Notes under the pieces: generated by a model | Seen by the model: only the letters and a program-made list of their open reading frames with translations | Databases searched by the model: none | What the model was told of the DNA's origin: nothing | Made by a program: the position numbers and the translations under genes | Assembly: GCA_041583495.1 (NCBI GenBank) | Contig: JBFHFS010000008.1 | Span: forward strand, 36,421 to 100,420 | Length of the DNA: 64,000 bases | Source: Marinilabiliaceae bacterium | GTDB lineage: Bacteria > Bacteroidota > Bacteroidia > Bacteroidales > Marinilabiliaceae | Direction of reading: 5' to 3' | In this document: in pieces, positions 6,541 through 38,784 of the stretch | Layout of the letters: the number at the start of each line of letters is the position of its first letter | Position numbering within the stretch: the first letter of the stretch is position 1

Positions 6541-7854
6541 ATGACTTTCGATCGCAGAAAATTTATTAAAACATCAGCGTATGTCGCCGGAGCAGTGAGT
6601 GCTGCTCCTACTTTAATACAAGCCTGTGCTTCTCCTAACAAGAAAATTGTAGTTGGATTGGTGGGGTGCAACAGTATGGGATTTACCGACCTGACCTATT
6701 TCATGAAACAACCCAATGTGGAGTGTGGGGCTATTTGTGATGTGGATCGTAATGTTCTGGAAAAGAGGGCAGCCGAGGTGGAGAAGATACAGGGGAAAAA
6801 ACCTGTTCTTTATGAGGATTTCAGGCATCTTATTGATAATAAGGATATTGATGTGGTTATTAATGGGACGCCCGATCACTGGCATGCCCTGGTTGGAATT
6901 TATGCGTGCCAGGCCGGCAAGGATCTCTACACCGAAAAGCCATTGGCCAACTCCATTGAGGAGTGTAATTTAATGATCAAAGCCCAAAAAAAATATGGCA
7001 CCGTGGTGCAGGTGGGACAGTGGCAGCGAAGTGACCCCCACTGGAACGATGCGGTGGCCTATCTGCACGGTGGTAACATCGGACGGATTCGCTCGGTACG
7101 GGCCTGGTCGTATGTGGGCTGGAAAGGGGCTTTACCCGTGATGCCCGACAGTGCCCCACCCGCGGGAGTCAACTATGATATGTGGTTAGGGCCTGCTCCC
7201 CAAAGAGCCTTTAATCCCAATCGCTTTCACCACAACTTTCGCTGGTACTGGGATTATGCCGGCGGGCTCATGGCCGACTGGGGCGTTCACCTGCTCGACT
7301 ATGCCCTGCTGGGGATGGATCGCTATGTGCCCGACTCCATTGTGTCGGTGGGCGGGAAATATGCCTTCCCCGATGATGCCCATCAAACCCCCGACACCAT
7401 GATGGCCATGTACGACTTTGGCGATTTTAACGTGCTTTGGGACCATGCCATTGGCATTTATGGGGCCAAATATGGTCGTGGACATGGGGTGGAATTTATC
7501 GGCGAATATGGGACCCTGGTGGTCGATCGCTCGGGCTGGCAAGTCTATCCCGAAACCAAAAGTAAATGCGCCAAAAAAGGATATGAAGGGATGCCTTTGC
7601 AAAAAAGCACTCACAATGGAATCGATCTGCATGTGAAGAACTTCCTGGAATGCATTGAAACACGCGAAAAACCCAATTGTGATATCGAAACAGGGGCGCA
7701 TATCGCTCGTTTTTCGCATATGGGAAATATCTCTTACCGCCTGGGCCGCAAGGTAATGTGGAACCCAAAACAGCAAAGCTTCGGAAACGATGAAGAGGCC
7801 AACGCGCTGATCAAAGCCCATTACAGGGCTCCATGGGAATTGCCCATCGTCTGA
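6541..7854 (+). CDS. TAT-exported Gfo/Idh/MocA family oxidoreductase (paralogue of 2685..4031)
   Basis: Twin-arginine signal DRRKFIKTSAYVAGAVSA. Also KIVVGLVGCNSMG, GTPDHWHA and YTEKP. Confidence 0.85.
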   Translation: MTFDRRKFIKTSAYVAGAVSAAPTLIQACASPNKKIVVGLVGCNSMGFTDLTYFMKQPNVECGAICDVDRNVLEKRAAEVEKIQGKKPVLYEDFRHLIDNKDIDVVINGTPDHWHALVGIYACQAGKDLYTEKPLANSIEECNLMIKAQKKYGTVVQVGQWQRSDPHWNDAVAYLHGGNIGRIRSVRAWSYVGWKGALPVMPDSAPPAGVNYDMWLGPAPQRAFNPNRFHHNFRWYWDYAGGLMADWGVHLLDYALLGMDRYVPDSIVSVGGKYAFPDDAHQTPDTMMAMYDFGDFNVLWDHAIGIYGAKYGRGHGVEFIGEYGTLVVDRSGWQVYPETKSKCAKKGYEGMPLQKSTHNGIDLHVKNFLECIETREKPNCDIETGAHIARFSHMGNISYRLGRKVMWNPKQQSFGNDEEANALIKAHYRAPWELPIV

Positions 7855-31825: not shown

Positions 31826-32731
31826 TCAGCTCATTAATCCACTTTTCTTCATCCAGTCAAAAAGGGGTTTCATCCATTCATAGGTGGGTAACTTTAACAC
31901 GAAGCCATGGTTGCCTTTTGGGTAGAGGTGCATCTCGGCCGGTACTTTATGCTGGATTAGTTGCTGGTAAAAGCGTATGCTGTTTTCAACGGGGACCACT
32001 GTATCGTCACCGGCATGGGTCAGCCAGGTGGGAGGGGTATTGGGACCTACGTGGAGTTCGTTGGAAAAGAGATTCTTCTGTTCCTGGGACGGAGCTGGGC
32101 CCAGAAGATTTGTACGTGATCCGGAGTGGGTAACTTCATCCTGCATCATGATGACGGGATAGACCAATATCATAAAATCGGGTCTCAGATTCACCTGCTC
32201 ATCGTTGGGGATATACGATTTCTGGAAGTGCGTTCCGGCCGTGGAGGCTAAATGCCCGCCGGCGGAGAATCCCATGATGCCTATTTTTGTGGGATTTAAT
32301 TGCCATTCCTGAGCCCGTTGACGTACGATTTTTATTGCCTGTTGCGCATCTTGCAGGGGGCCTATGGCTTTGTTGGGCATGATGGAATCATCAGGCAGGC
32401 GGTATTTCAGGATAAAAGCAGCGATGCCCTGGCTAAGAAAGGCCTCTGCAATAATGGTGCCTTCGCGCCAATAGCTTTCTCCCGTGTAGCCGCCTCCCGG
32501 ACAGATAATCACACCCGCTCCTGTTGCATTGGCTTTTGGCGGAAGAAATAGGGTCAGGGTTGGATGGGATATCTGTTTAATCCATGAAACGCGGCCGTTT
32601 TCCATTTTGGTTGTTTCCTGGTCAGGATAGGGGCGACTGTTGGGGATGGCGCCCGGATAGAGGTCAATGATTTGTTGGGCTTCTGCAGTCAGCGAAAAAA
32701 GGAGCGTGAGGATCAAGAGGTAGGTTTTCAT
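31826..32731 (-). CDS. Secreted alpha/beta hydrolase-fold esterase (carbohydrate/acetyl esterase-like)
   Basis: CPGGGY oxyanion motif and GFSAGGH nucleophile elbow, with a C-terminal His region GNHGF. Confidence 0.8.
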   Translation of the reverse strand: MKTYLLILTLLFSLTAEAQQIIDLYPGAIPNSRPYPDQETTKMENGRVSWIKQISHPTLTLFLPPKANATGAGVIICPGGGYTGESYWREGTIIAEAFLSQGIAAFILKYRLPDDSIMPNKAIGPLQDAQQAIKIVRQRAQEWQLNPTKIGIMGFSAGGHLASTAGTHFQKSYIPNDEQVNLRPDFMILVYPVIMMQDEVTHSGSRTNLLGPAPSQEQKNLFSNELHVGPNTPPTWLTHAGDDTVVPVENSIRFYQQLIQHKVPAEMHLYPKGNHGFVLKLPTYEWMKPLFDWMKKSGLMS

Positions 32732-33114
32732 GGGTTTGGGTTTAATTATTTTGTGGTTTTATTAGATCTTTGAGCATCGTTGCCCGCTGGCTGGTATTTG
32801 GGAATATGTGATTGGGACATTTCCAAATCCTGGGTGCTGAATTCAAACCTTTCACTCAGATATTTGAATCTGTCTTCGGTGCTCTCAATTATTTACCTTC
32901 TAATATGCGTAAATTTTCCTCAATTTCAAGAATATCTTTCACCGTTTTGAATCCAAAAATGGGTGGTCTGATACGAGGGGGGAAATGAGATATTGTTAAT
33001 TGAATTTCTTGTCTTTTTTAATGATTCCTTATTTACCATAGCGGAATAAATTTGAGATGGATTAGATCTCAAGGAGTTTAATGATTGCTTATGCCTCTTG
33101 TCAGGAGCCTGGAA

Positions 33115-34071
33115 TTAATGTAAAAATAGCGCCAGACCATAAAAATTGGTATCTGGATTCTCATTCTTGTAAAAGATGGAAGCATTTAAGTGTTTCTTTA
33201 TTGAATATTGAATGCCTGCCCAAAGGACCTTTTGAGGTTGTGTATTTATCGATTTTTTGTTCAAATCGTATCGGGTAAAGAGCAATATGTTTTTGAAGCG
33301 TAAATAATTTCCAAAGACTGAGAACCCAATCTGATCCTGACTTTCCGGGTTATTATGGCTGCTTTTTTTTGCGGCTTCTATTCCAAAACGGGCTTCCTTT
33401 ATTTGTTTGCTTAAAAAGAGGGAAAGTATATGTTCGTGGTTGGTGTTCAGAGAGATACAGTTGAAAAGTCTGATGGTGCAAAAAACCGTTTGAAGGGTTT
33501 GTCCTGTCATGAATTGATATTTCTTTGAGGAGTCCTTAATTGGGGTATAATATCCGGAAGTAAAAGCTATATCATACCAAAAACGTTCCGCCACGGTGTG
33601 TTTTAGTAAAATTCCAATGTTCCGATTTTCCCCATAGTCAAAGTAATTTTGGAATGTTTTGCTGACGTACCTTAATTGCCATATTTTTCGTGGGTATTTA
33701 AATTGTTCCGAAACAAGCAATCCTGCCAAAAGGGACAATCCTTGTTGTTGATATTGCAAATAGGCTCTTTTTATATAGGGTGTTCGTTGGTAGATTTCAT
33801 TATTATCTTTTACATAAGTGTCTCCGGCAAGGCAAAAATTCCATCTCTTGAAAAAATGTTGATTGTAAACAATCAATGTTCTATTTAAGTCGTATTTTTC
33901 TGTTAAGGGTTTTGATGCCTCGTGGTAAAAGCCGGCCTTGGCAAAAACCTGAAAATTTATGGAATAGTTTTTTCCTTTTACCGAATCCTGTTGCGCATTG
34001 GTATTGTGGGCATATAAAAAGGAAAGCAGCAGAAGAGACAAAATTCTTCTGCTGCTTTCCATCGGTCTCAT
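33115..34071 (-). CDS. Hypothetical outer-membrane, porin-like beta-barrel protein
   Basis: Signal SSRRILSLLLLSFLYAHNTNAQ. It is rich in aromatic-terminated amphipathic strands and has no hydrophobic helices. My preferred start is ATG 34071; the ORF-track start at 34095 would overlap the TauE stop by 14 nt. Confidence 0.45.
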   Translation of the reverse strand: MRPMESSRRILSLLLLSFLYAHNTNAQQDSVKGKNYSINFQVFAKAGFYHEASKPLTEKYDLNRTLIVYNQHFFKRWNFCLAGDTYVKDNNEIYQRTPYIKRAYLQYQQQGLSLLAGLLVSEQFKYPRKIWQLRYVSKTFQNYFDYGENRNIGILLKHTVAERFWYDIAFTSGYYTPIKDSSKKYQFMTGQTLQTVFCTIRLFNCISLNTNHEHILSLFLSKQIKEARFGIEAAKKSSHNNPESQDQIGFSVFGNYLRFKNILLFTRYDLNKKSINTQPQKVLWAGIQYSIKKHLNASIFYKNENPDTNFYGLALFLH

Positions 34072-34081
34072 GTTCTTTAGA

Positions 34082-34861
34082 TTATTGTAAAACATTAATA
34101 ATCATTATTACAGATGCCACCAGTTGAGTGCCTGCAAATAGGTATTTCAGGTTTTTGGGTTTCGAGTTCAGAGCCATTTTGGCCCCTAAAAATCCACCAA
34201 TCAAGCCAGCTGCCGCAAGAGGTATCGCCAGGTGAGGAAGAAAAATCCCTGCACCAAGATGCCCAAAAAATCCTGCTGCCGCCGAAATGGTAACCAGGGT
34301 GGTAGAGGTACCCACAGCGATATGCATGGGCACACTCATGGTGAGCAGCATTAAAGGCACCAGAAAGGAGCCCCCCGAAACACCCACCATCCCGGAGATA
34401 AATCCGGTGAGTAACACAATGGGGATGGTTACCAACAGGTTGACATGGTATTCTTCCCCATTCGATTTCAATGAAACAATCCAATTACGGTCACTCTTAA
34501 GATGTTGTTTGGGCTTTCGTAACATAAGCAGCGCCGCCAGAAACATCACTACTGCAAAAACCCCTTTAAGCAACTTTTCGTTGAAATACTGACCAAAATA
34601 ACCACCACTCAAGGCGGATACAAATATTAAGCTTCCCAGCAGGATGGTTAACTTCCAGTGATTCATCTTTTGCTTACTGAAAAGAATGGTGGCCATCAGT
34701 GATGAACACATTAAAATAAACTGACCTGTTGAAGCCGAAATGTTCATGCCAATACCAGACAAAACCAGAGCTAAAACATAAAAATTTCCACCACCTCTTC
34801 CTGTCATCGTCATGATAAATGCAATAAGCAAAATAACGACCGCTAATAAATAAACATTCAT
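34082..34861 (-). CDS. Sulfite exporter TauE/SafE family membrane protein
   Basis: 259 aa with about 8 hydrophobic helices. It shows the two-half internal repeat and Gly-rich helices (MTGRGGGNFYV..., GMVGVSGGSFLVPLM) typical of TauE/SafE. Confidence 0.75.
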   Translation of the reverse strand: MNVYLLAVVILLIAFIMTMTGRGGGNFYVLALVLSGIGMNISASTGQFILMCSSLMATILFSKQKMNHWKLTILLGSLIFVSALSGGYFGQYFNEKLLKGVFAVVMFLAALLMLRKPKQHLKSDRNWIVSLKSNGEEYHVNLLVTIPIVLLTGFISGMVGVSGGSFLVPLMLLTMSVPMHIAVGTSTTLVTISAAAGFFGHLGAGIFLPHLAIPLAAAGLIGGFLGAKMALNSKPKNLKYLFAGTQLVASVIMIINVLQ

Positions 34862-34864
34862 GCC

Positions 34865-35254
34865 TTAGTTATTGAGTTTTTTATAGAGTTTGCCGGGCAT
34901 TACCGCTGCCATCAAAGGAGGATAGCCCCCGAGGATGATTTTGACATCTTTATAGCCTTTACTTTTCAGGTAAACAAAAATGATGGTTGCCCTTACTCCT
35001 GCTGAACAAAAAACACCAATGGTTTTATCCCTGGGGATTTCGTTTATCCTTTCTGGAATTTCATTGGTGGGTATCTCAATGACTTGGCAGTGATGCGAGA
35101 GAGAAAGCTTAATCGTTTCCTGCTCTTCCTTTGCTCTTACATCTAAAAAAATGGTGTTCCCGGCAGAAAGAAATTTTTCTACTTCCACCTTGTGTTCTCC
35201 GTTGCCAAAGTATTGGAAATCCATTTCACTAATTGTTTTTTCTAAATCATTCAT
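34865..35254 (-). CDS. Single-domain rhodanese (sulfurtransferase)
   Basis: LDVRAKEE...IP and the catalytic loop FCSAGVRA (Cys-x4-Arg). The stop is 3 nt from the TauE start. Confidence 0.8.
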   Translation of the reverse strand: MNDLEKTISEMDFQYFGNGEHKVEVEKFLSAGNTIFLDVRAKEEQETIKLSLSHHCQVIEIPTNEIPERINEIPRDKTIGVFCSAGVRATIIFVYLKSKGYKDVKIILGGYPPLMAAVMPGKLYKKLNN

Positions 35255-35317
35255 TTGTGTTGTTTTAAGTTATGTTTCCTGGAAAATGTGGATTTCTGTT
35301 TTTTGCGAATGAAAATC

Positions 35318-36154
35318 TTACCTTTTATCCATTAATTGATAATGAATATCCCCAAATAGTTTGTGGGCTACCGACTTCTCATGACAGGAGGTACAGTTCA
35401 TCTTTCCTGTAGTATTCCCTAATTTGCCATGACCTCCGTGGCATGCCAGGCATTCATTTACTGTTTCATTATCCTGGTAACTGGTTATAAAGGTATGGTT
35501 GAAATACGTGTTGAGCATTTCAACGGTATGAGCAGCTACATCAGCGGTTAATCGTCGGCAACGTTCTGTGCGCTCTTTGCTGTCTATTCTGTATCCGGCT
35601 TTTTTCCCCCATTTGGTAGTTGAGGCATGACAAAGTATCGATTCTGAGGTAGAAGTAATTGGTGTGAAATCTAAGGTTGGGTCAGTAGGGGTATAAATAG
35701 GGAAGGCATTGGTTTCGTACCAGCGAAATAACTCAGCTGTAAGAATATCCCTGGTGTTTTTATCGTTGATCAGTAATCCAAATATGGCAGAAGCCCCGTT
35801 TAAACTGCCACAGATGGTTCCTGCACCACCAACACCTCCGTGGCCATATTTCATCATATGAACGGGAAAGGAGGTATAGGGTTCTCCAAATTTTTCGCTT
35901 AGTTGAGCAATAATGCTGCTAAAAACACCATACATACAACTCCCTATATTGTAATTTTTGTAGGCTTGAGCGGATGTTATGTCAGGATCCAGAATCGTAT
36001 AGTTCCATTGAGTTTCGGCATTGTTGGGTTCTACCTTTATAGGGGAAGGGGTAGAAGCCTTTTCGGGTTTAAATGCATTGGTCAGTGTCCCAATTCCTGC
36101 TGTTCCGGCAACAATTGCACCTGCTGCCACTTTGATAGCGTTTCGTCTGTTCAT
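35318..36154 (-). CDS. TAT-exported C_GCAxxG_C_C-family redox protein with C-terminal dihaem (2 x CxxCH) region; split-Soret cytochrome c-like
   Basis: Twin-arginine signal MNRRNAIKVAAGAIVAG. The motifs are GSCMYGV...GGAGTICGSLNGASAIFG (C_GCAxxG_C_C-type) and two haem-c motifs, CLACH and CTSCH, 17 residues apart near the C-terminus. Confidence 0.65.
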   Translation of the reverse strand: MNRRNAIKVAAGAIVAGTAGIGTLTNAFKPEKASTPSPIKVEPNNAETQWNYTILDPDITSAQAYKNYNIGSCMYGVFSSIIAQLSEKFGEPYTSFPVHMMKYGHGGVGGAGTICGSLNGASAIFGLLINDKNTRDILTAELFRWYETNAFPIYTPTDPTLDFTPITSTSESILCHASTTKWGKKAGYRIDSKERTERCRRLTADVAAHTVEMLNTYFNHTFITSYQDNETVNECLACHGGHGKLGNTTGKMNCTSCHEKSVAHKLFGDIHYQLMDKR

Positions 36155-36225
36155 TTTTGGGTTAGTTTGGAAGTTGGCATAATAGCCAAATTGACAGTGA
36201 AAAAATTTTTGGTGATGAAATAAAT

Positions 36226-36522
36226 TTATAATTTCTTGTTAATGACTCGGGTTGCACAACTCATAAAATCAAGCACACAGGGAATGGCTAAACGATAATA
36301 GATGAAGTTTTTATCTTTTTCTCCTTCAATTATTTTGTGCTTTTTAAGGATGTCAAGATGTTTAGACATGGTTGATATATCAATGCCAACTGTTTCGGTG
36401 AGCTCTTTTACCGACAACTTTTTATCGTTCACCGCATGAATAATATACAAGCGGGTGGGATGTGCCAGGGCTTTGAAGATCTCAGCCTTTTCTAAATATT
36501 CCTTTTCAATAGCTTTGTTCAT
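36226..36522 (-). CDS. ArsR/SmtB-family transcriptional regulator
   Basis: IFKALAHPTRLYIIHAV...LSVKELTE.VGIDISTMSKHLDILKKHKII is the wHTH core. A C-terminal Cys pair is present (PCVLDFMSC). I prefer ATG 36522 (98 aa); the ORF-track start at 36624 is a TTG. Confidence 0.8.
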   Translation of the reverse strand: MNKAIEKEYLEKAEIFKALAHPTRLYIIHAVNDKKLSVKELTETVGIDISTMSKHLDILKKHKIIEGEKDKNFIYYRLAIPCVLDFMSCATRVINKKL

Positions 36523-36570
36523 AATTCCTGCTTTTAAGTATTGATTGCTTTTTTCGGTATCATTTTTTTC

Positions 36571-36592
36571 GTTTATTCTATCGAAAATAAAC
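36571..36592. promoter_or_regulatory. Inverted repeat GTTTATT-N8-AATAAAC, candidate ArsR operator
   Basis: It has perfect 7-bp arms and lies 49-70 nt upstream of the ArsR ATG at 36522. ArsR/SmtB operators are AT-rich dyads near their own promoter. Confidence 0.3.
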
Positions 36593-36730
36593 AGGGTCGC
36601 GGCATTAAATGGTAAATGTTTCAAATACGATTTCGGTTATTTGGTCAGGATAGAATATTTTTTTATTCTCCCCACTTGTACTGTTCTGGTGAAGGTATTT
36701 CTTCAATGGCATCAAAAATAATGTGCTTGT

Positions 36731-36768
36731 CTATTTGGCAAAATTACCAAATAGAATTTAATTGCCAA
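36731..36768. promoter_or_regulatory. Dyad CTATTTGG-N8-CCAAATAG plus flanking TTGGCAA/TTGCCAA inverted pair, overlapping a minus-strand TAATTTTG (-7-like) box
   Basis: The perfect 8-bp arms are at 36731-36738 and 36747-36754. TTGGCAA lies at 36735-36741 and TTGCCAA at 36762-36768. The minus strand reads TAATTTTG across 36746-36739, which matches TAnnTTTG. Confidence 0.3.
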
Positions 36769-37129
36769 AAAATATCATCTTTTTTAAGGGGTGCAGTATT
36801 TTGCTTTGGTGGTAAGGGTGAGTATGGTCATCTTTACAAAGTCCGTAGCCATTATTCCGGACAATTCAGTTTGCCTGATTCATAAAAATCCCTAACCCAT
36901 AGGTTGGGTGGCAGAATTTATTCAATGGTTAATTAAATCCTTCCTTTCGGCTGTGAAGGGCGCAACCCAGTGCCCCCATGATCTTGGGCTCTTCGGGGAC
37001 CAGCACGGGAAGATTAGATCGTAGGGAGGTAATGGAATCCCGACAGAACTCCTGGTTCAGCTCAAAAGGATTTGCAATGGGTGATGGGCAACGTGAGATT
37101 TCTTTTATCCGGATGGTTACCCACAGGCG

Positions 37130-37780
37130 CTATTGTCGGGTTAATGACTGGCCTAATTTTTTTCCCAGTTCAAAGGCCTGGTCCATGATCCGGGGTTGCT
37201 TTTTGATGGCTCCTTTTTCAAACGAGAGCAGGACCGGAAGCGTGCCTATTATTTCGAATCCCAGGGCCTCCATGGGTCGTAGCATTGCTTCCATGGCAAA
37301 TCCCATGTCCTCCATCTGTGCTTGTTCGCAAACGGCAGAGATTACTACTTTTCTATTTTGGTTGGCCAGGCGGCTACTCCAGGCCCGCGGGCGGGTATTG
37401 TTGTCAAATTCATAAAAACAATACAACCGGTCAATGAAGGCTTTCATCCAGGAGGTGATGTTGTAATTATGCACCGGTGAAGCCAGAATTAATCCTTGTG
37501 ATTCAATGATATCCGGATATAAGGTAGACATCCCATCGTTTATCTTTGTGCAGATCTTGTCTCTTCTACACTTCTCGCAACCCACACATCCCTTTAATTC
37601 AAGATCTCTCAGATTTACATTTTCAAATCCGATCTGTTCATCTTTCAATCCCGATATAATTTGTTTTATCAGGAGGTCCGTATTCCCGCCGCTTCTTGGG
37701 CTGCCTCCAATGGCCAATACCTTTGGGATGGGATTCTCCATCAAGCTTGCCTTTTCTAATAGCTCCTCAAAATAAATCAT
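37130..37780 (-). CDS. Iron-sulfur flavoprotein-like NAD(P)H-dependent FMN reductase (flavodoxin fold)
   Basis: VLAIGGSPRSGGNT FMN-reductase N-terminus and the compact Cys cluster GCVGCEKCRRDKIC (CxxCxxC-x5-C), as in Isf-type proteins. An alternative start is Met14 (37741). Confidence 0.7.
   Translation of the reverse strand: MIYFEELLEKASLMENPIPKVLAIGGSPRSGGNTDLLIKQIISGLKDEQIGFENVNLRDLELKGCVGCEKCRRDKICTKINDGMSTLYPDIIESQGLILASPVHNYNITSWMKAFIDRLYCFYEFDNNTRPRAWSSRLANQNRKVVISAVCEQAQMEDMGFAMEAMLRPMEALGFEIIGTLPVLLSFEKGAIKKQPRIMDQAFELGKKLGQSLTRQ

Positions 37781-37908: not shown

Positions 37909-38784
<876 letters not shown>

What the first reader, a model, noticed from the sequence alone, without database searches (positions are those of the whole stretch)
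33115..36624. ArsR / TAT dihaem redox protein / rhodanese / TauE exporter / porin-like protein: a compact envelope-spanning sulfur-handling operon candidate
Five same-strand genes are packed closely. In transcription order they are:
1. ArsR regulator, followed by a 71-nt gap.
2. Split-Soret-like cytochrome, followed by a 63-nt gap.
3. Rhodanese, followed by a 3-nt gap.
4. TauE/SafE exporter, followed by a gap of about 10 nt or an overlap.
5. Porin-like outer-membrane protein.

The predicted locations cover every compartment: a cytoplasmic regulator and sulfurtransferase (active-site loop CSAGVR), an inner-membrane anion exporter, a TAT-exported periplasmic haem/Cys-rich redox protein, and an outer-membrane channel.

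ArsR-family persulfide/sulfide sensors (BigR, SqrR type) are known to control rhodanese-type and TauE-like membrane proteins in Proteobacteria. I do not know of a described system that combines these with a split-Soret-type cytochrome and a dedicated porin in Bacteroidota.

The regulator lacks the classical ELCVCDL arsenite site. It carries a C-terminal Cys pair (PCVLDFMSC) that could be a thiol-based sensor. The working hypothesis is an inducible sulfite, thiosulfate or persulfide (or selenium-oxyanion) detoxification and export module.
Basis: inference. Interest (0 to 1): 0.62.

Follow-up and report, generated by a model that had tools for sequence, protein, structure and literature searches.

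The report
ArsR-controlled rhodanese, TauE, cytochrome, porin operon
This is a real five-gene unit, conserved in marine Bacteroidota and switched by one cysteine-bearing repressor, that most likely moves a reactive sulfur (or possibly arsenic or selenium) anion across both membranes, and it gives the long-unexplained split-Soret cytochrome its first testable genomic context.

Summary
The five minus-strand genes exist as described: ArsR, a TAT-signal dihaem split-Soret-like cytochrome (SSC), rhodanese, TauE and a 16-strand porin.

They form a functional unit, not a chance row. The same order recurs in Labilibaculum filiforme, Puteibacter and Marinilabiliaceae JC017. 35 related loci show a modular pattern:
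- The core is ArsR-rhodanese-TauE.
- The periplasmic partner is either SSC or a signal-peptide rhodanese, never both.
- The porin is an optional last gene. One locus fuses rhodanese to this porin.

Every locus carries the palindrome TATTTGGC-N6-GCCAAATA upstream of the first gene, and usually again before the cargo. In the window these are O1 at 36731-36754 and a degenerate O2 at 36171-36192. The repressor's Cys82/Cys89 pair is invariant, but it is not the BigR/SqrR pair.

The chemistry is inferred. Rhodaneses, TauE, the rhodanese::porin fusion and neighbouring YeeE-type transporters favour sulfane sulfur, thiosulfate or sulfite. However, one orthologous operon carries ArsC, and 33 of 80 SSC homologues lie in ars islands, so a metalloid role is not excluded. 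No RNA data exist.

Verdict: a new variant of the known ArsR/rhodanese/TauE kind, of moderate to high interest.

The parts
36730..36755 (-). Operator O1, TCTATTTGG-TAATTTTG-CCAAATAGA. It holds the core palindrome TATTTGGN-N6-GCCAAATA.
   Evidence: A 10/12 inverted repeat and the only site in the 64-kb window. The same motif lies upstream of the first gene of every locus with an orthologous ArsR.
36739..36746 (-). Candidate Bacteroidota -7 promoter box TAATTTTG, inside O1. A TTTG lies 19 nt upstream at 36766-36769.
   Evidence: Read directly from the sequence. The TAnnTTTG / TTTG consensus is recalled from the literature and was not tested here.
36226..36522 (-). ArsR/SmtB-family repressor, 98 aa, with invariant Cys82 and Cys89 at the start of helix alpha5.
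36171..36192 (-). Degenerate second operator O2, AATTTGGCTATTATGCCAACTT, in the ArsR-SSC spacer.
   Evidence: A well-conserved O2 occupies the same spacer in most sister loci. The window copy has 3 mismatches to the consensus.
35318..36154 (-). Split-Soret-like protein (SSC), 278 aa. It has a twin-arginine signal (R3R4), four cluster Cys (73, 115, 175, 199), and two CXXCH motifs (235-239 and 254-258).
   Evidence: PF09719 at 48 bits. NF047622 at 223 bits, against a cut-off of 400. PDB 1H21 at E=6e-41. All of these residues are invariant in 14 homologues.
34865..35254 (-). Cytoplasmic single-domain rhodanese, 129 aa, with active-site loop C83-SAGVR.
   Evidence: PF00581. The loop FCS(A/S)G(V/I)R is nearly invariant in about 30 orthologues, the Cys and Arg without exception, and the second Cys is not conserved.
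34082..34861 (-). TauE/SafE-family inner-membrane anion permease, 259 aa.
   Evidence: PF01925 at 136.8 bits. Orthologues are 53-90% identical and almost always follow the rhodanese.
33115..34095 (-). Outer-membrane 16-strand porin with a conserved basic in-folded loop, EQFKYxRKIWQLRYxxKTFQN.
   Evidence: AF2 model with pLDDT 78 and pTM 0.70. Foldseek matches classical porins and OprP. The close subfamily is found only in this module.
34021..34060 (-). 16-bp perfect hairpin followed by a U tract, inside the signal-peptide codons of the porin gene.
   Evidence: -28.8 kcal/mol with z=-6.15. Listed as terminator-like. Present at the same place in all 8 porin-bearing loci with different sequence, and 6 of 16 pairs show changes on both sides. 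No comparably conserved hairpin follows TauE in porin-less loci, though some have their own terminator-like hairpin.

Best explanation
This is a stress-inducible, modular regulon that spans the cell envelope and is found in Bacteroidota.

Proposed steps:
1. A 98-aa ArsR-family dimer binds an 8-6-8 palindrome at two places. O1 overlaps the -7 box of its own promoter, and O2 lies in front of the cargo genes. Binding represses the operon.
2. A thiol-reactive inducer, most likely sulfane sulfur (persulfide or polysulfide), modifies the invariant Cys82/Cys89 pair on helix alpha5 at the dimer interface and releases the repressor.
3. The cytoplasmic rhodanese takes sulfane sulfur from low-molecular-weight persulfides or thiosulfate. 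This yields a small sulfur oxyanion such as sulfite or thiosulfate.
4. TauE exports that anion to the periplasm.
5. The TAT-exported Fe-S/dihaem split-Soret-like protein performs a periplasmic redox or sulfur-transfer step. A secreted rhodanese does this job in sister loci.
6. A dedicated, probably anion-selective, porin passes the product through the outer membrane.

What is shown: the gene identities, their compartments, their modular co-inheritance under one regulator and one operator, and the invariant Cys residues.

What is inferred: the inducer, the substrate, the direction of transport and co-transcription.
For: Unit and regulation:
- The five-gene order recurs in L001, L003 and L088.
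- In the 35 loci with the orthologous ArsR (48-89% identity), the cargo is always drawn from the same small set of parts.
- O1 is found in every such locus and O2 in most.
- The Cys82/Cys89 pair is invariant.

Sulfur chemistry:
- The rhodanese has a 6-residue CX4R sulfurtransferase-type loop that is nearly invariant, its Cys and Arg without exception.
- The permease is a strong TauE-family match.
- A signal-peptide rhodanese with a CX4R loop replaces SSC in 11 loci and never co-occurs with it.
- A rhodanese::porin fusion exists in L110. hhalign against the porin family gives probability 98.7%.
- L110 also carries two PF04143 'Sulphur transport' genes, a third rhodanese and a thioredoxin.
- Lutibacter has AhpC/TSA-type redoxins after TauE.

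Literature:
- ArsR-type sulfane-sulfur sensors commonly control rhodanese and TauE genes (PMC12423496 read; PMC10054925 read).

Porin:
- It has the classical 16-strand fold, with OprP among the matches.
- Its nearest outgroup porin sits next to a PstS-like anion-binding protein.
Against: - The regulator lacks both Cys positions that define BigR/SqrR-type persulfide sensors.
- No experiment, RNA-seq run or paper bears on this module.
- ArsC lies inside one orthologous operon (L103). ArsC and Acr3 flank the module in L007 and L112. The SSC family is embedded in ars islands in 33 of 80 loci.
- TauE-family members differ in substrate and in direction of transport (established knowledge).
- The function of split-Soret cytochrome c is unknown, and G20 mutants showed no phenotype (PMC4215793).
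- A dedicated porin is more typical of uptake systems than of efflux (inference).
Confidence: 0.45

Rival explanations
1. The module is for metalloid or chalcogen detoxification (arsenic, thio-arsenic or selenium). The CX6C pair of ArsR binds As(III) or forms an S-Se-S bridge. The rhodanese strips sulfur from thio-arsenate-like species or carries selenium. TauE exports arsenite or an analogous oxyanion. SSC does periplasmic redox chemistry on the metalloid, and the porin lets the product out.
For: - L103 is ArsR(78% identical)-ArsC-SSC-TauE under a perfect O1.
- L007 continues into ArsR-ArsC-Acr3, and L112, L114 and L118 mix the module with ArsP_1 permeases, ArsE-like thioredoxins, ArsC and Acr3.
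- 33 of 80 SSC homologues sit in arsR-arsE-arsF-arsG-permease-SSC-arsR-arsM-acr3 islands.
- Cys82 aligns with an alpha5 metal-site ligand of SmtB (offset read; ligand identity recalled from memory).
- ArsR As(III) sites are known to have arisen at several different positions (established knowledge).
Against: - The window and its closest relatives contain no bona fide ars gene.
- The regulator has only two Cys per monomer and lacks every described As(III) motif (the motifs are recalled from memory).
- The rhodanese loop is CX4R, which is the sulfurtransferase type, and not the CX5R loop of Acr2/Cdc25-type arsenate reductases (established knowledge).
- The SSC copies in ars islands are governed by different ArsRs, only 30-40% identical.
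Confidence: 0.25
2. The same parts run inward. The porin admits thiosulfate or polysulfide, the periplasmic SSC or rhodanese processes it, TauE imports it, and the cytoplasmic rhodanese mobilises the sulfur for assimilation or as an electron sink.
For: - Substrate-dedicated porins usually serve uptake. The nearest outgroup porin is linked to a PstS-like binding protein.
- The rhodanese::porin fusion resembles a capture device at the inner mouth of a channel.
- YeeE-type importers are present in L110.
- Some TauE-family members are importers (established knowledge).
Against: - A repressor that is inactivated by a cytoplasmic thiol-reactive product would give positive feedback on uptake, which is unusual (inference).
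- TauE homologues next to rhodaneses in characterised systems are read as exporters (PMC12423496).
Confidence: 0.15
3. The five genes are only neighbours, with no shared regulation or function.
For: - Most SSC homologues (about 70 of 80) are not next to rhodanese-TauE.
- The terminator-like hairpin precedes most of the porin ORF.
Against: - The same parts recombine only with each other under one orthologous regulator.
- Operators lie directly in front of SSC, rhodanese or the secreted rhodanese.
- The close porin subfamily occurs nowhere else.
Confidence: 0.03

Closest known systems
BigR / SqrR / SoxR-sHdrR regulons (ArsR-type sulfane-sulfur sensors of Proteobacteria)
   Same: An ArsR-family repressor with a Cys pair sits next to rhodanese and TauE-type transporter genes. 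Derepression is by thiol modification (PMC12423496, PMC10054925).
   Different: - The Cys pair is at a different place: Cys82/Cys89, both on alpha5, with His at the BigR alpha2 Cys position.
- The BigR model score is far below its cut-off.
- There is no persulfide dioxygenase or SQR.
- A split-Soret-like cytochrome and a porin are added.
- The host phylum is Bacteroidota.
E. coli YgaV-YgaP and the S. aureus cst locus with tauE
   Same: A small regulator is paired with a rhodanese, with or without a TauE permease, as a compact response unit to sulfide or reactive sulfur (the ArsR match to YgaV, PDB 3CUO, is).
   Different: YgaP is a membrane-anchored rhodanese. CstR belongs to the CsoR family. 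Neither system has a periplasmic redox partner or a porin.
Split-Soret cytochrome c of Desulfovibrio desulfuricans ATCC 27774 (PDB 1H21)
   Same: Similarity runs over nearly the whole length (E=6e-41). It has the four Cys of the C_GCAxxG_C_C cluster site, two C-terminal CXXCH motifs and periplasmic targeting.
   Different: - The score is 223 bits against the NCBIfam equivalog cut-off of 400.
- The host is a Bacteroidota organism.
- It is embedded in an ArsR regulon or in ars islands.
- The Desulfovibrio protein has no known function or operon logic.
arsR-arsEFG-arsP-arsM-acr3 islands of Prolixibacteraceae
   Same: They contain a homologous SSC gene (48-57% identical) and ArsR regulators. Some also include the rhodanese-TauE pair.
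   Different: The window has none of ArsE, F, G, P, M, C or Acr3. Its regulator is a separate orthologous group with its own operator.
OprP/OprO and general 16-strand porins; periplasmic rhodaneses PspE and Sud
   Same: It has a 16-strand barrel with an in-folded loop and many invariant basic residues. A secreted single-domain rhodanese acts as the periplasmic sulfur handler in sister loci.
   Different: There is no Pfam porin hit. Sequence identity to solved porins is about 10%. The rhodanese::porin fusion has no described counterpart that I found.

Membership tests
Split-Soret cytochrome c (NF047622 / PDB 1H21) | Significant similarity over nearly the whole length to the solved protein | tested here: met
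   phmmer E=6.3e-41, with residues 49-263 aligned to 18-238 of 1H21_A.
Split-Soret cytochrome c (NF047622 / PDB 1H21) | Two CXXCH haem c motifs and the four Cys of the C_GCAxxG_C_C site | tested here: met
   Cys 73, 115, 175 and 199, plus C235xxCH and C254xxCH. All are invariant in 14 homologues.
Split-Soret cytochrome c (NF047622 / PDB 1H21) | Score above the curated equivalog cut-off | tested here: not met
   223.2 bits against a cut-off of 400. This is a related subfamily and not an equivalog.
Split-Soret cytochrome c (NF047622 / PDB 1H21) | Split Soret band, stacked haems in a dimer, and a [2Fe-2S] centre | not testable with these tools
   This needs the purified protein and spectroscopy.
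BigR/SqrR-type persulfide-sensing ArsR | Cys pair with one Cys in alpha2 and one near the C-terminal end of alpha5 | tested here: not met
   His29 aligns with the BigR alpha2 Cys, and there is no Cys at the position aligned with the BigR alpha5 Cys (alignment; the BigR residue numbers are recalled from memory).
BigR/SqrR-type persulfide-sensing ArsR | Curated model score | tested here: not met
   NF040642 scores 52.5 bits against a cut-off of 155.
BigR/SqrR-type persulfide-sensing ArsR | Neighbouring rhodanese and sulfur-transporter genes | tested here: met
   Rhodanese-TauE follow the regulator in most of the 35 loci.
BigR/SqrR-type persulfide-sensing ArsR | Loss of DNA binding on persulfide treatment | not testable with these tools
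   This needs EMSA or mass spectrometry.
As(III)-responsive ArsR | ELCVC(D/G)L site in alpha3, or another described three-Cys site | tested here: not met
   There is no Cys in alpha3. The only Cys are Cys82 and Cys89.
As(III)-responsive ArsR | Control of ars genes | tested here: inconclusive
   There are none in the window or its closest relatives. ArsC lies inside the orthologous operon of L103.
Rhodanese-type sulfurtransferase | Rhodanese domain with a catalytic Cys in a six-residue CX4R loop | tested here: met
   PF00581 at 37.3 bits against 22.2. The loop is C83-SAGVR and is nearly invariant in orthologues, the Cys and Arg without exception.
TauE/SafE permease (PF01925) | Full-length Pfam match above the gathering score | tested here: met
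   136.8 bits against 32.6, with residues 6-251 covering profile positions 1-235 of 237.
TauE/SafE permease (PF01925) | Sulfite or sulfonate export | not testable with these tools
   This needs a transport assay.
16-strand outer-membrane porin | Signal peptide and a 16-strand beta-barrel with an in-folded loop | tested here: met
   The AF2 model has 16 strands and short helices at residues 121-144, with pLDDT 78. Foldseek probability is 1.00 and TM 0.6-0.69 to OmpT, OmpU, OmpC, PorB and OprP.
16-strand outer-membrane porin | Membership of a curated porin family | tested here: not met
   There is no Pfam or NCBIfam hit. Only remote relatives give weak BBP2 or Porin_O_P hits.
16-strand outer-membrane porin | Anion selectivity and trimeric pore | not testable with these tools
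   This is inferred only from the invariant Arg/Lys residues and from the outgroup context.

The most novel reading that the evidence does not exclude
The split-Soret/C_GCAxxG_C_C proteins are periplasmic handlers of sulfane-sulfur or thiol-metalloid adducts that can stand in for a secreted rhodanese. Together with a new alpha5 CX6C class of ArsR sensor and a rhodanese-associated anion porin family, they would form a previously undescribed route across the Bacteroidota envelope. That route could carry thio-oxyanions such as thiosulfate or its arsenic analogue monothioarsenate, which would link sulfur and arsenic detoxification in sulfidic sediments.
Probability: 0.15. Interest if true: 0.8.

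Novelty: new variant of a known kind. Interest (0 to 1): 0.6.

Why it matters
- ArsR-controlled rhodanese/TauE units are known from Proteobacteria and Firmicutes. This one has a different sensor Cys geometry, its own operator and two added envelope components, and it occurs in marine Bacteroidota.
- It gives split-Soret cytochrome c, whose role has been unknown since its structure was solved, a defined regulon and an apparent functional substitute (a secreted rhodanese). Its function therefore becomes testable in cultivated strains.
- It defines a small porin subfamily tied to this module. This includes a rhodanese::porin fusion, in a phylum where classical porins are poorly described.
- The overlap with ars islands suggests that sulfur and metalloid stress responses share parts in sulfidic habitats.

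Tried and rejected
- RNA evidence: only four marine-metagenome DNA runs hold the sequence, so co-transcription could not be tested.
- Rfam on 32700-37200, including the roughly 210-nt leader of arsR, returned only a chance miRNA-model hit on the hairpin.
- PADLOC returned only generic HTH matches, so this is not a defence system.
- Literature searches on split-Soret cytochrome, C_GCAxxG_C_C, TsoR, TauE+rhodanese+ArsR, and ars operon+rhodanese found no description of this module or of an SSC function.
- The TTG-extended 132-aa ArsR ORF is rejected in favour of the 98-aa form.
- The upstream FMN_red/iron-sulfur-flavoprotein-like gene is not conserved with the module, apart from a 31%-identical gene in L129, so it is not counted as a part.
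- A DmsA/DmsB-like pair upstream in L081 occurs in one locus only and has no specific family assignment, so it is uninformative.
- TsoR (44.6 bits against 115) and SdpR (62.8 bits against 100) are below their cut-offs.
- My first clustering merged rhodanese with ArsR and with the porin. The porin merge was traced to the fusion protein, and the architectures were then resolved by direct tblastn.
- In the notebook I first wrote the Cys pair as C82/C90 (CX7C). The recount gives C82/C89 (CX6C).

Full report
**1. Observation**

The window has five tightly packed minus-strand ORFs at 33115-36522. Pfam and NCBIfam confirm four of them.
- An ArsR/SmtB regulator (HTH_20/HTH_5; NF033788 at 76.5 bits).
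- A C_GCAxxG_C_C protein.
- A rhodanese.
- A TauE/SafE permease (136.8 bits).

The C_GCAxxG_C_C protein is similar over nearly its whole length to split-Soret cytochrome c. It scores 223 bits against NF047622, below the cut-off of 400, and E=6.3e-41 against PDB 1H21. It has an N-terminal RR motif, four conserved Cys and two CXXCH motifs. All of these are invariant in 14 homologues.

The fifth protein has no family hit. An AlphaFold model built from 20 homologues (pLDDT 78, pTM 0.70) is a 16-strand barrel with a short helical in-folded loop. Foldseek matches OmpT, OmpU, OmpC, PorB and OprP at probability 1.0 and TM 0.6-0.69.

Corrections:
- The ArsR ORF starts at ATG 36522 and gives 98 aa. It does not start at TTG 36624, because all orthologues are 97-98 aa.
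- The Cys pair is Cys82/Cys89, i.e. CX6C.

**2. Is it a unit?**

I scanned one genome per species with an SSC alignment (80 loci). I scanned metagenomes with a TauE alignment (35 loci). I also looked up contigs encoding porin and ArsR homologues.

The exact five-gene order recurs in Labilibaculum filiforme (L001), Puteibacter caeruleilacunae (L003) and Marinilabiliaceae JC017 (L088; its SSC appears frameshifted).

There are 35 loci whose ArsR is 48-89% identical to the window's. Across them the cargo is always drawn from one small set of parts:
- ArsR-Rhod-TauE, the commonest form. It reaches Marinifilum, and Lutibacter has the form without the cytoplasmic rhodanese.
- ArsR-SSC.
- ArsR-SSC-porin.
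- ArsR-Rhod-TauE-porin.
- pRhod-ArsR-Rhod-TauE, with or without the porin. Here pRhod is a 130-aa rhodanese with a signal peptide and a CX4R loop.
- ArsR-ArsC-SSC-TauE (L103).

SSC occurs in 11 of these loci and pRhod in 11. They never occur together.

The close porin subfamily (21 clusters; 9 representatives with E<1e-60) was found only as the last gene of this module.

In L110 a 473-aa protein fuses a signal-peptide rhodanese to a barrel homologous to this porin. hhalign gives probability 98.7%, and the WxLRYxxxTFQ loop motif is shared.

**3. Regulation**

A palindrome with consensus TATTTGGC-N6-GCCAAATA lies upstream of the first gene in every locus with the orthologous regulator. It appears whatever the leader length, which ranges from 15 to about 230 nt. 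When pRhod comes first, the palindrome lies in front of pRhod.

Most loci have a second copy in the spacer between ArsR and the cargo.

In the window:
- O1 is at 36730-36755. It is the only site in 64 kb.
- The centre of O1 holds TAATTTTG, with a TTTG 19 nt upstream. This fits the Bacteroidota -7/-33 promoter consensus as I recall it, and I did not test that here.
- O2 is at 36171-36192 and is degenerate, with 3 mismatches.

The regulator's Cys82 and Cys89 are invariant in 26 distinct orthologues. Cys82 falls at the position of an alpha5 metal-site ligand of SmtB (offset read; ligand identity recalled from memory). The regulator has His at the BigR alpha2 Cys position, has no Cys at the BigR alpha5 position, and scores far below the BigR, TsoR and SdpR cut-offs. 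It therefore works like a Cys-based ArsR sensor but is not a member of the BigR/SqrR group.

**4. What it handles**

Evidence for sulfur:
- The rhodanese loop FCS(A/S)G(V/I)R is nearly invariant; its catalytic Cys and Arg are invariant.
- TauE is part of the core.
- A secreted rhodanese is the alternative to SSC.
- The rhodanese::porin fusion exists.
- L110 also carries two PF04143 'Sulphur transport' genes, a third rhodanese and a periplasmic thioredoxin.
- Lutibacter has AhpC/TSA redoxins after TauE.
- Published ArsR-type sulfane-sulfur sensors sit next to rhodanese and TauE genes (PMC12423496; PMC10054925).

Evidence for a metalloid:
- L103 has an ArsC-like LMW-PTP gene between the regulator and SSC.
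- L007 continues into ArsR-ArsC-Acr3.
- L112, L114 and L118 mix the pair with ArsP_1 permeases, ArsE-like thioredoxins, ArsC and Acr3.
- In 33-35 of 80 loci the SSC homologue lies in an arsR-arsE-arsF-arsG-permease-SSC-arsR-arsM-acr3 island. Those islands are under different ArsRs, only 30-40% identical.

The wider porin family has 587 representatives at E<=1e-3. It gives only weak BBP2 and Porin_O_P hits. Its nearest outgroup member sits beside a PstS-like binding protein. This fits an oxyanion channel.

**5. Mechanism and rivals**

I rank a sulfane-sulfur or sulfur-oxyanion detoxification and export route first (0.45). A metalloid or chalcogen module comes second (0.25). An inward, assimilatory or respiratory version of the same parts comes third (0.15). 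Mere adjacency is effectively excluded (0.03).

The chemistry, the direction of transport and co-transcription are all inferred. No RNA runs exist, and no paper describes the module or a role for split-Soret cytochromes.

**6. An extra feature**

A perfect 16-bp hairpin with a U tract lies at 34021-34060, inside the codons of the porin's signal peptide.
- Its free energy is -28.8 kcal/mol, with z=-6.15.
- It is present at the same place in all eight porin-bearing loci with different sequences, including the locus where SSC and not TauE precedes the porin. 6 of 16 pairs have changes on both sides.
- No comparably conserved hairpin follows TauE in porin-less loci, though a few have their own terminator-like hairpin.

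It may attenuate transcription into the porin gene or gate its translation. This qualifies the claim of a simple five-gene transcript.

**7. Verdict**

This is a new variant of a known kind. Its main value is a testable context for split-Soret cytochromes, a new ArsR sensor geometry with a defined operator, and a module-specific porin subfamily.

Noticed in passing
window 37909-38766 (-): A 285-aa secreted protein. After a signal peptide it carries a ubiquitin domain that is 69/74 identical to eukaryotic ubiquitin (differences E16D, S20N, F45Y, H68Y, L73V; no C-terminal GG). This is followed by a He_PIG Ig-like domain and a T9SS C-terminal sorting domain. It looks like a horizontally acquired eukaryotic ubiquitin displayed or secreted through the type IX system.
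   Followed up: partly
window 34021-34060 (-): A conserved 16-bp hairpin plus U tract sits inside the signal-peptide codons of the porin gene (z=-6.15). It is present in all eight porin-bearing loci with covarying sequence. It is a possible attenuator or translational gate.
   Followed up: yes
L110 1847-3268: A 473-aa fusion of a signal-peptide rhodanese and a porin barrel homologous to the window's porin (P0407). The same locus also has split YeeE-type 'Sulphur transport' genes, an Alginate_exp-type barrel, a third rhodanese and a thioredoxin.
   Followed up: yes
L023, L041, L047, L049, L052 and about 25 further loci (around position 7000): There is a recurrent Prolixibacteraceae island arsR-arsE-arsF-arsG-permease(ArsP_1/SaoE-like)-SSC-arsR-arsM-acr3. 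ArsE/ArsF/ArsG resemble a thioredoxin-CcdA-thioredoxin relay to the periplasm that ends next to the SSC gene.
   Followed up: partly
window 37130-37780 (-); L129 2234-2869: An FMN_red protein with a compact Cys motif (CVGCEKCRRDKIC), like an iron-sulfur flavoprotein, lies upstream of the module in the window. A 31%-identical one lies directly upstream of the module in L129. It is not found in the other loci.
   Followed up: partly
window 36523-37129: There is an unusually long 600-nt spacer upstream of arsR. It contains a short ORF tail (...PKIMGALGCALHSRKEGFN*) at about 36930-37050 that has no Pfam hit and may be a gene remnant.
   Followed up: partly
L088 3951-4783: In Marinilabiliaceae bacterium JC017 the SSC gene is split into two overlapping tblastn pieces and is called as only 189 aa. 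This is a probable frameshift or pseudogene inside an otherwise intact module.
   Followed up: no
L126 5872-6165: Labilibaculum filiforme carries a second copy of the regulator, 88-89% identical to the window's, with no cargo genes beside it.
   Followed up: no
L081 297-318 and 548-4827: A one-mismatch operator-like site precedes an OMP_b-brl_2 gene and a DmsA/DmsB-like molybdoenzyme pair that lie upstream of ArsR-SSC-porin. The regulon may therefore extend further in that organism.
   Followed up: no
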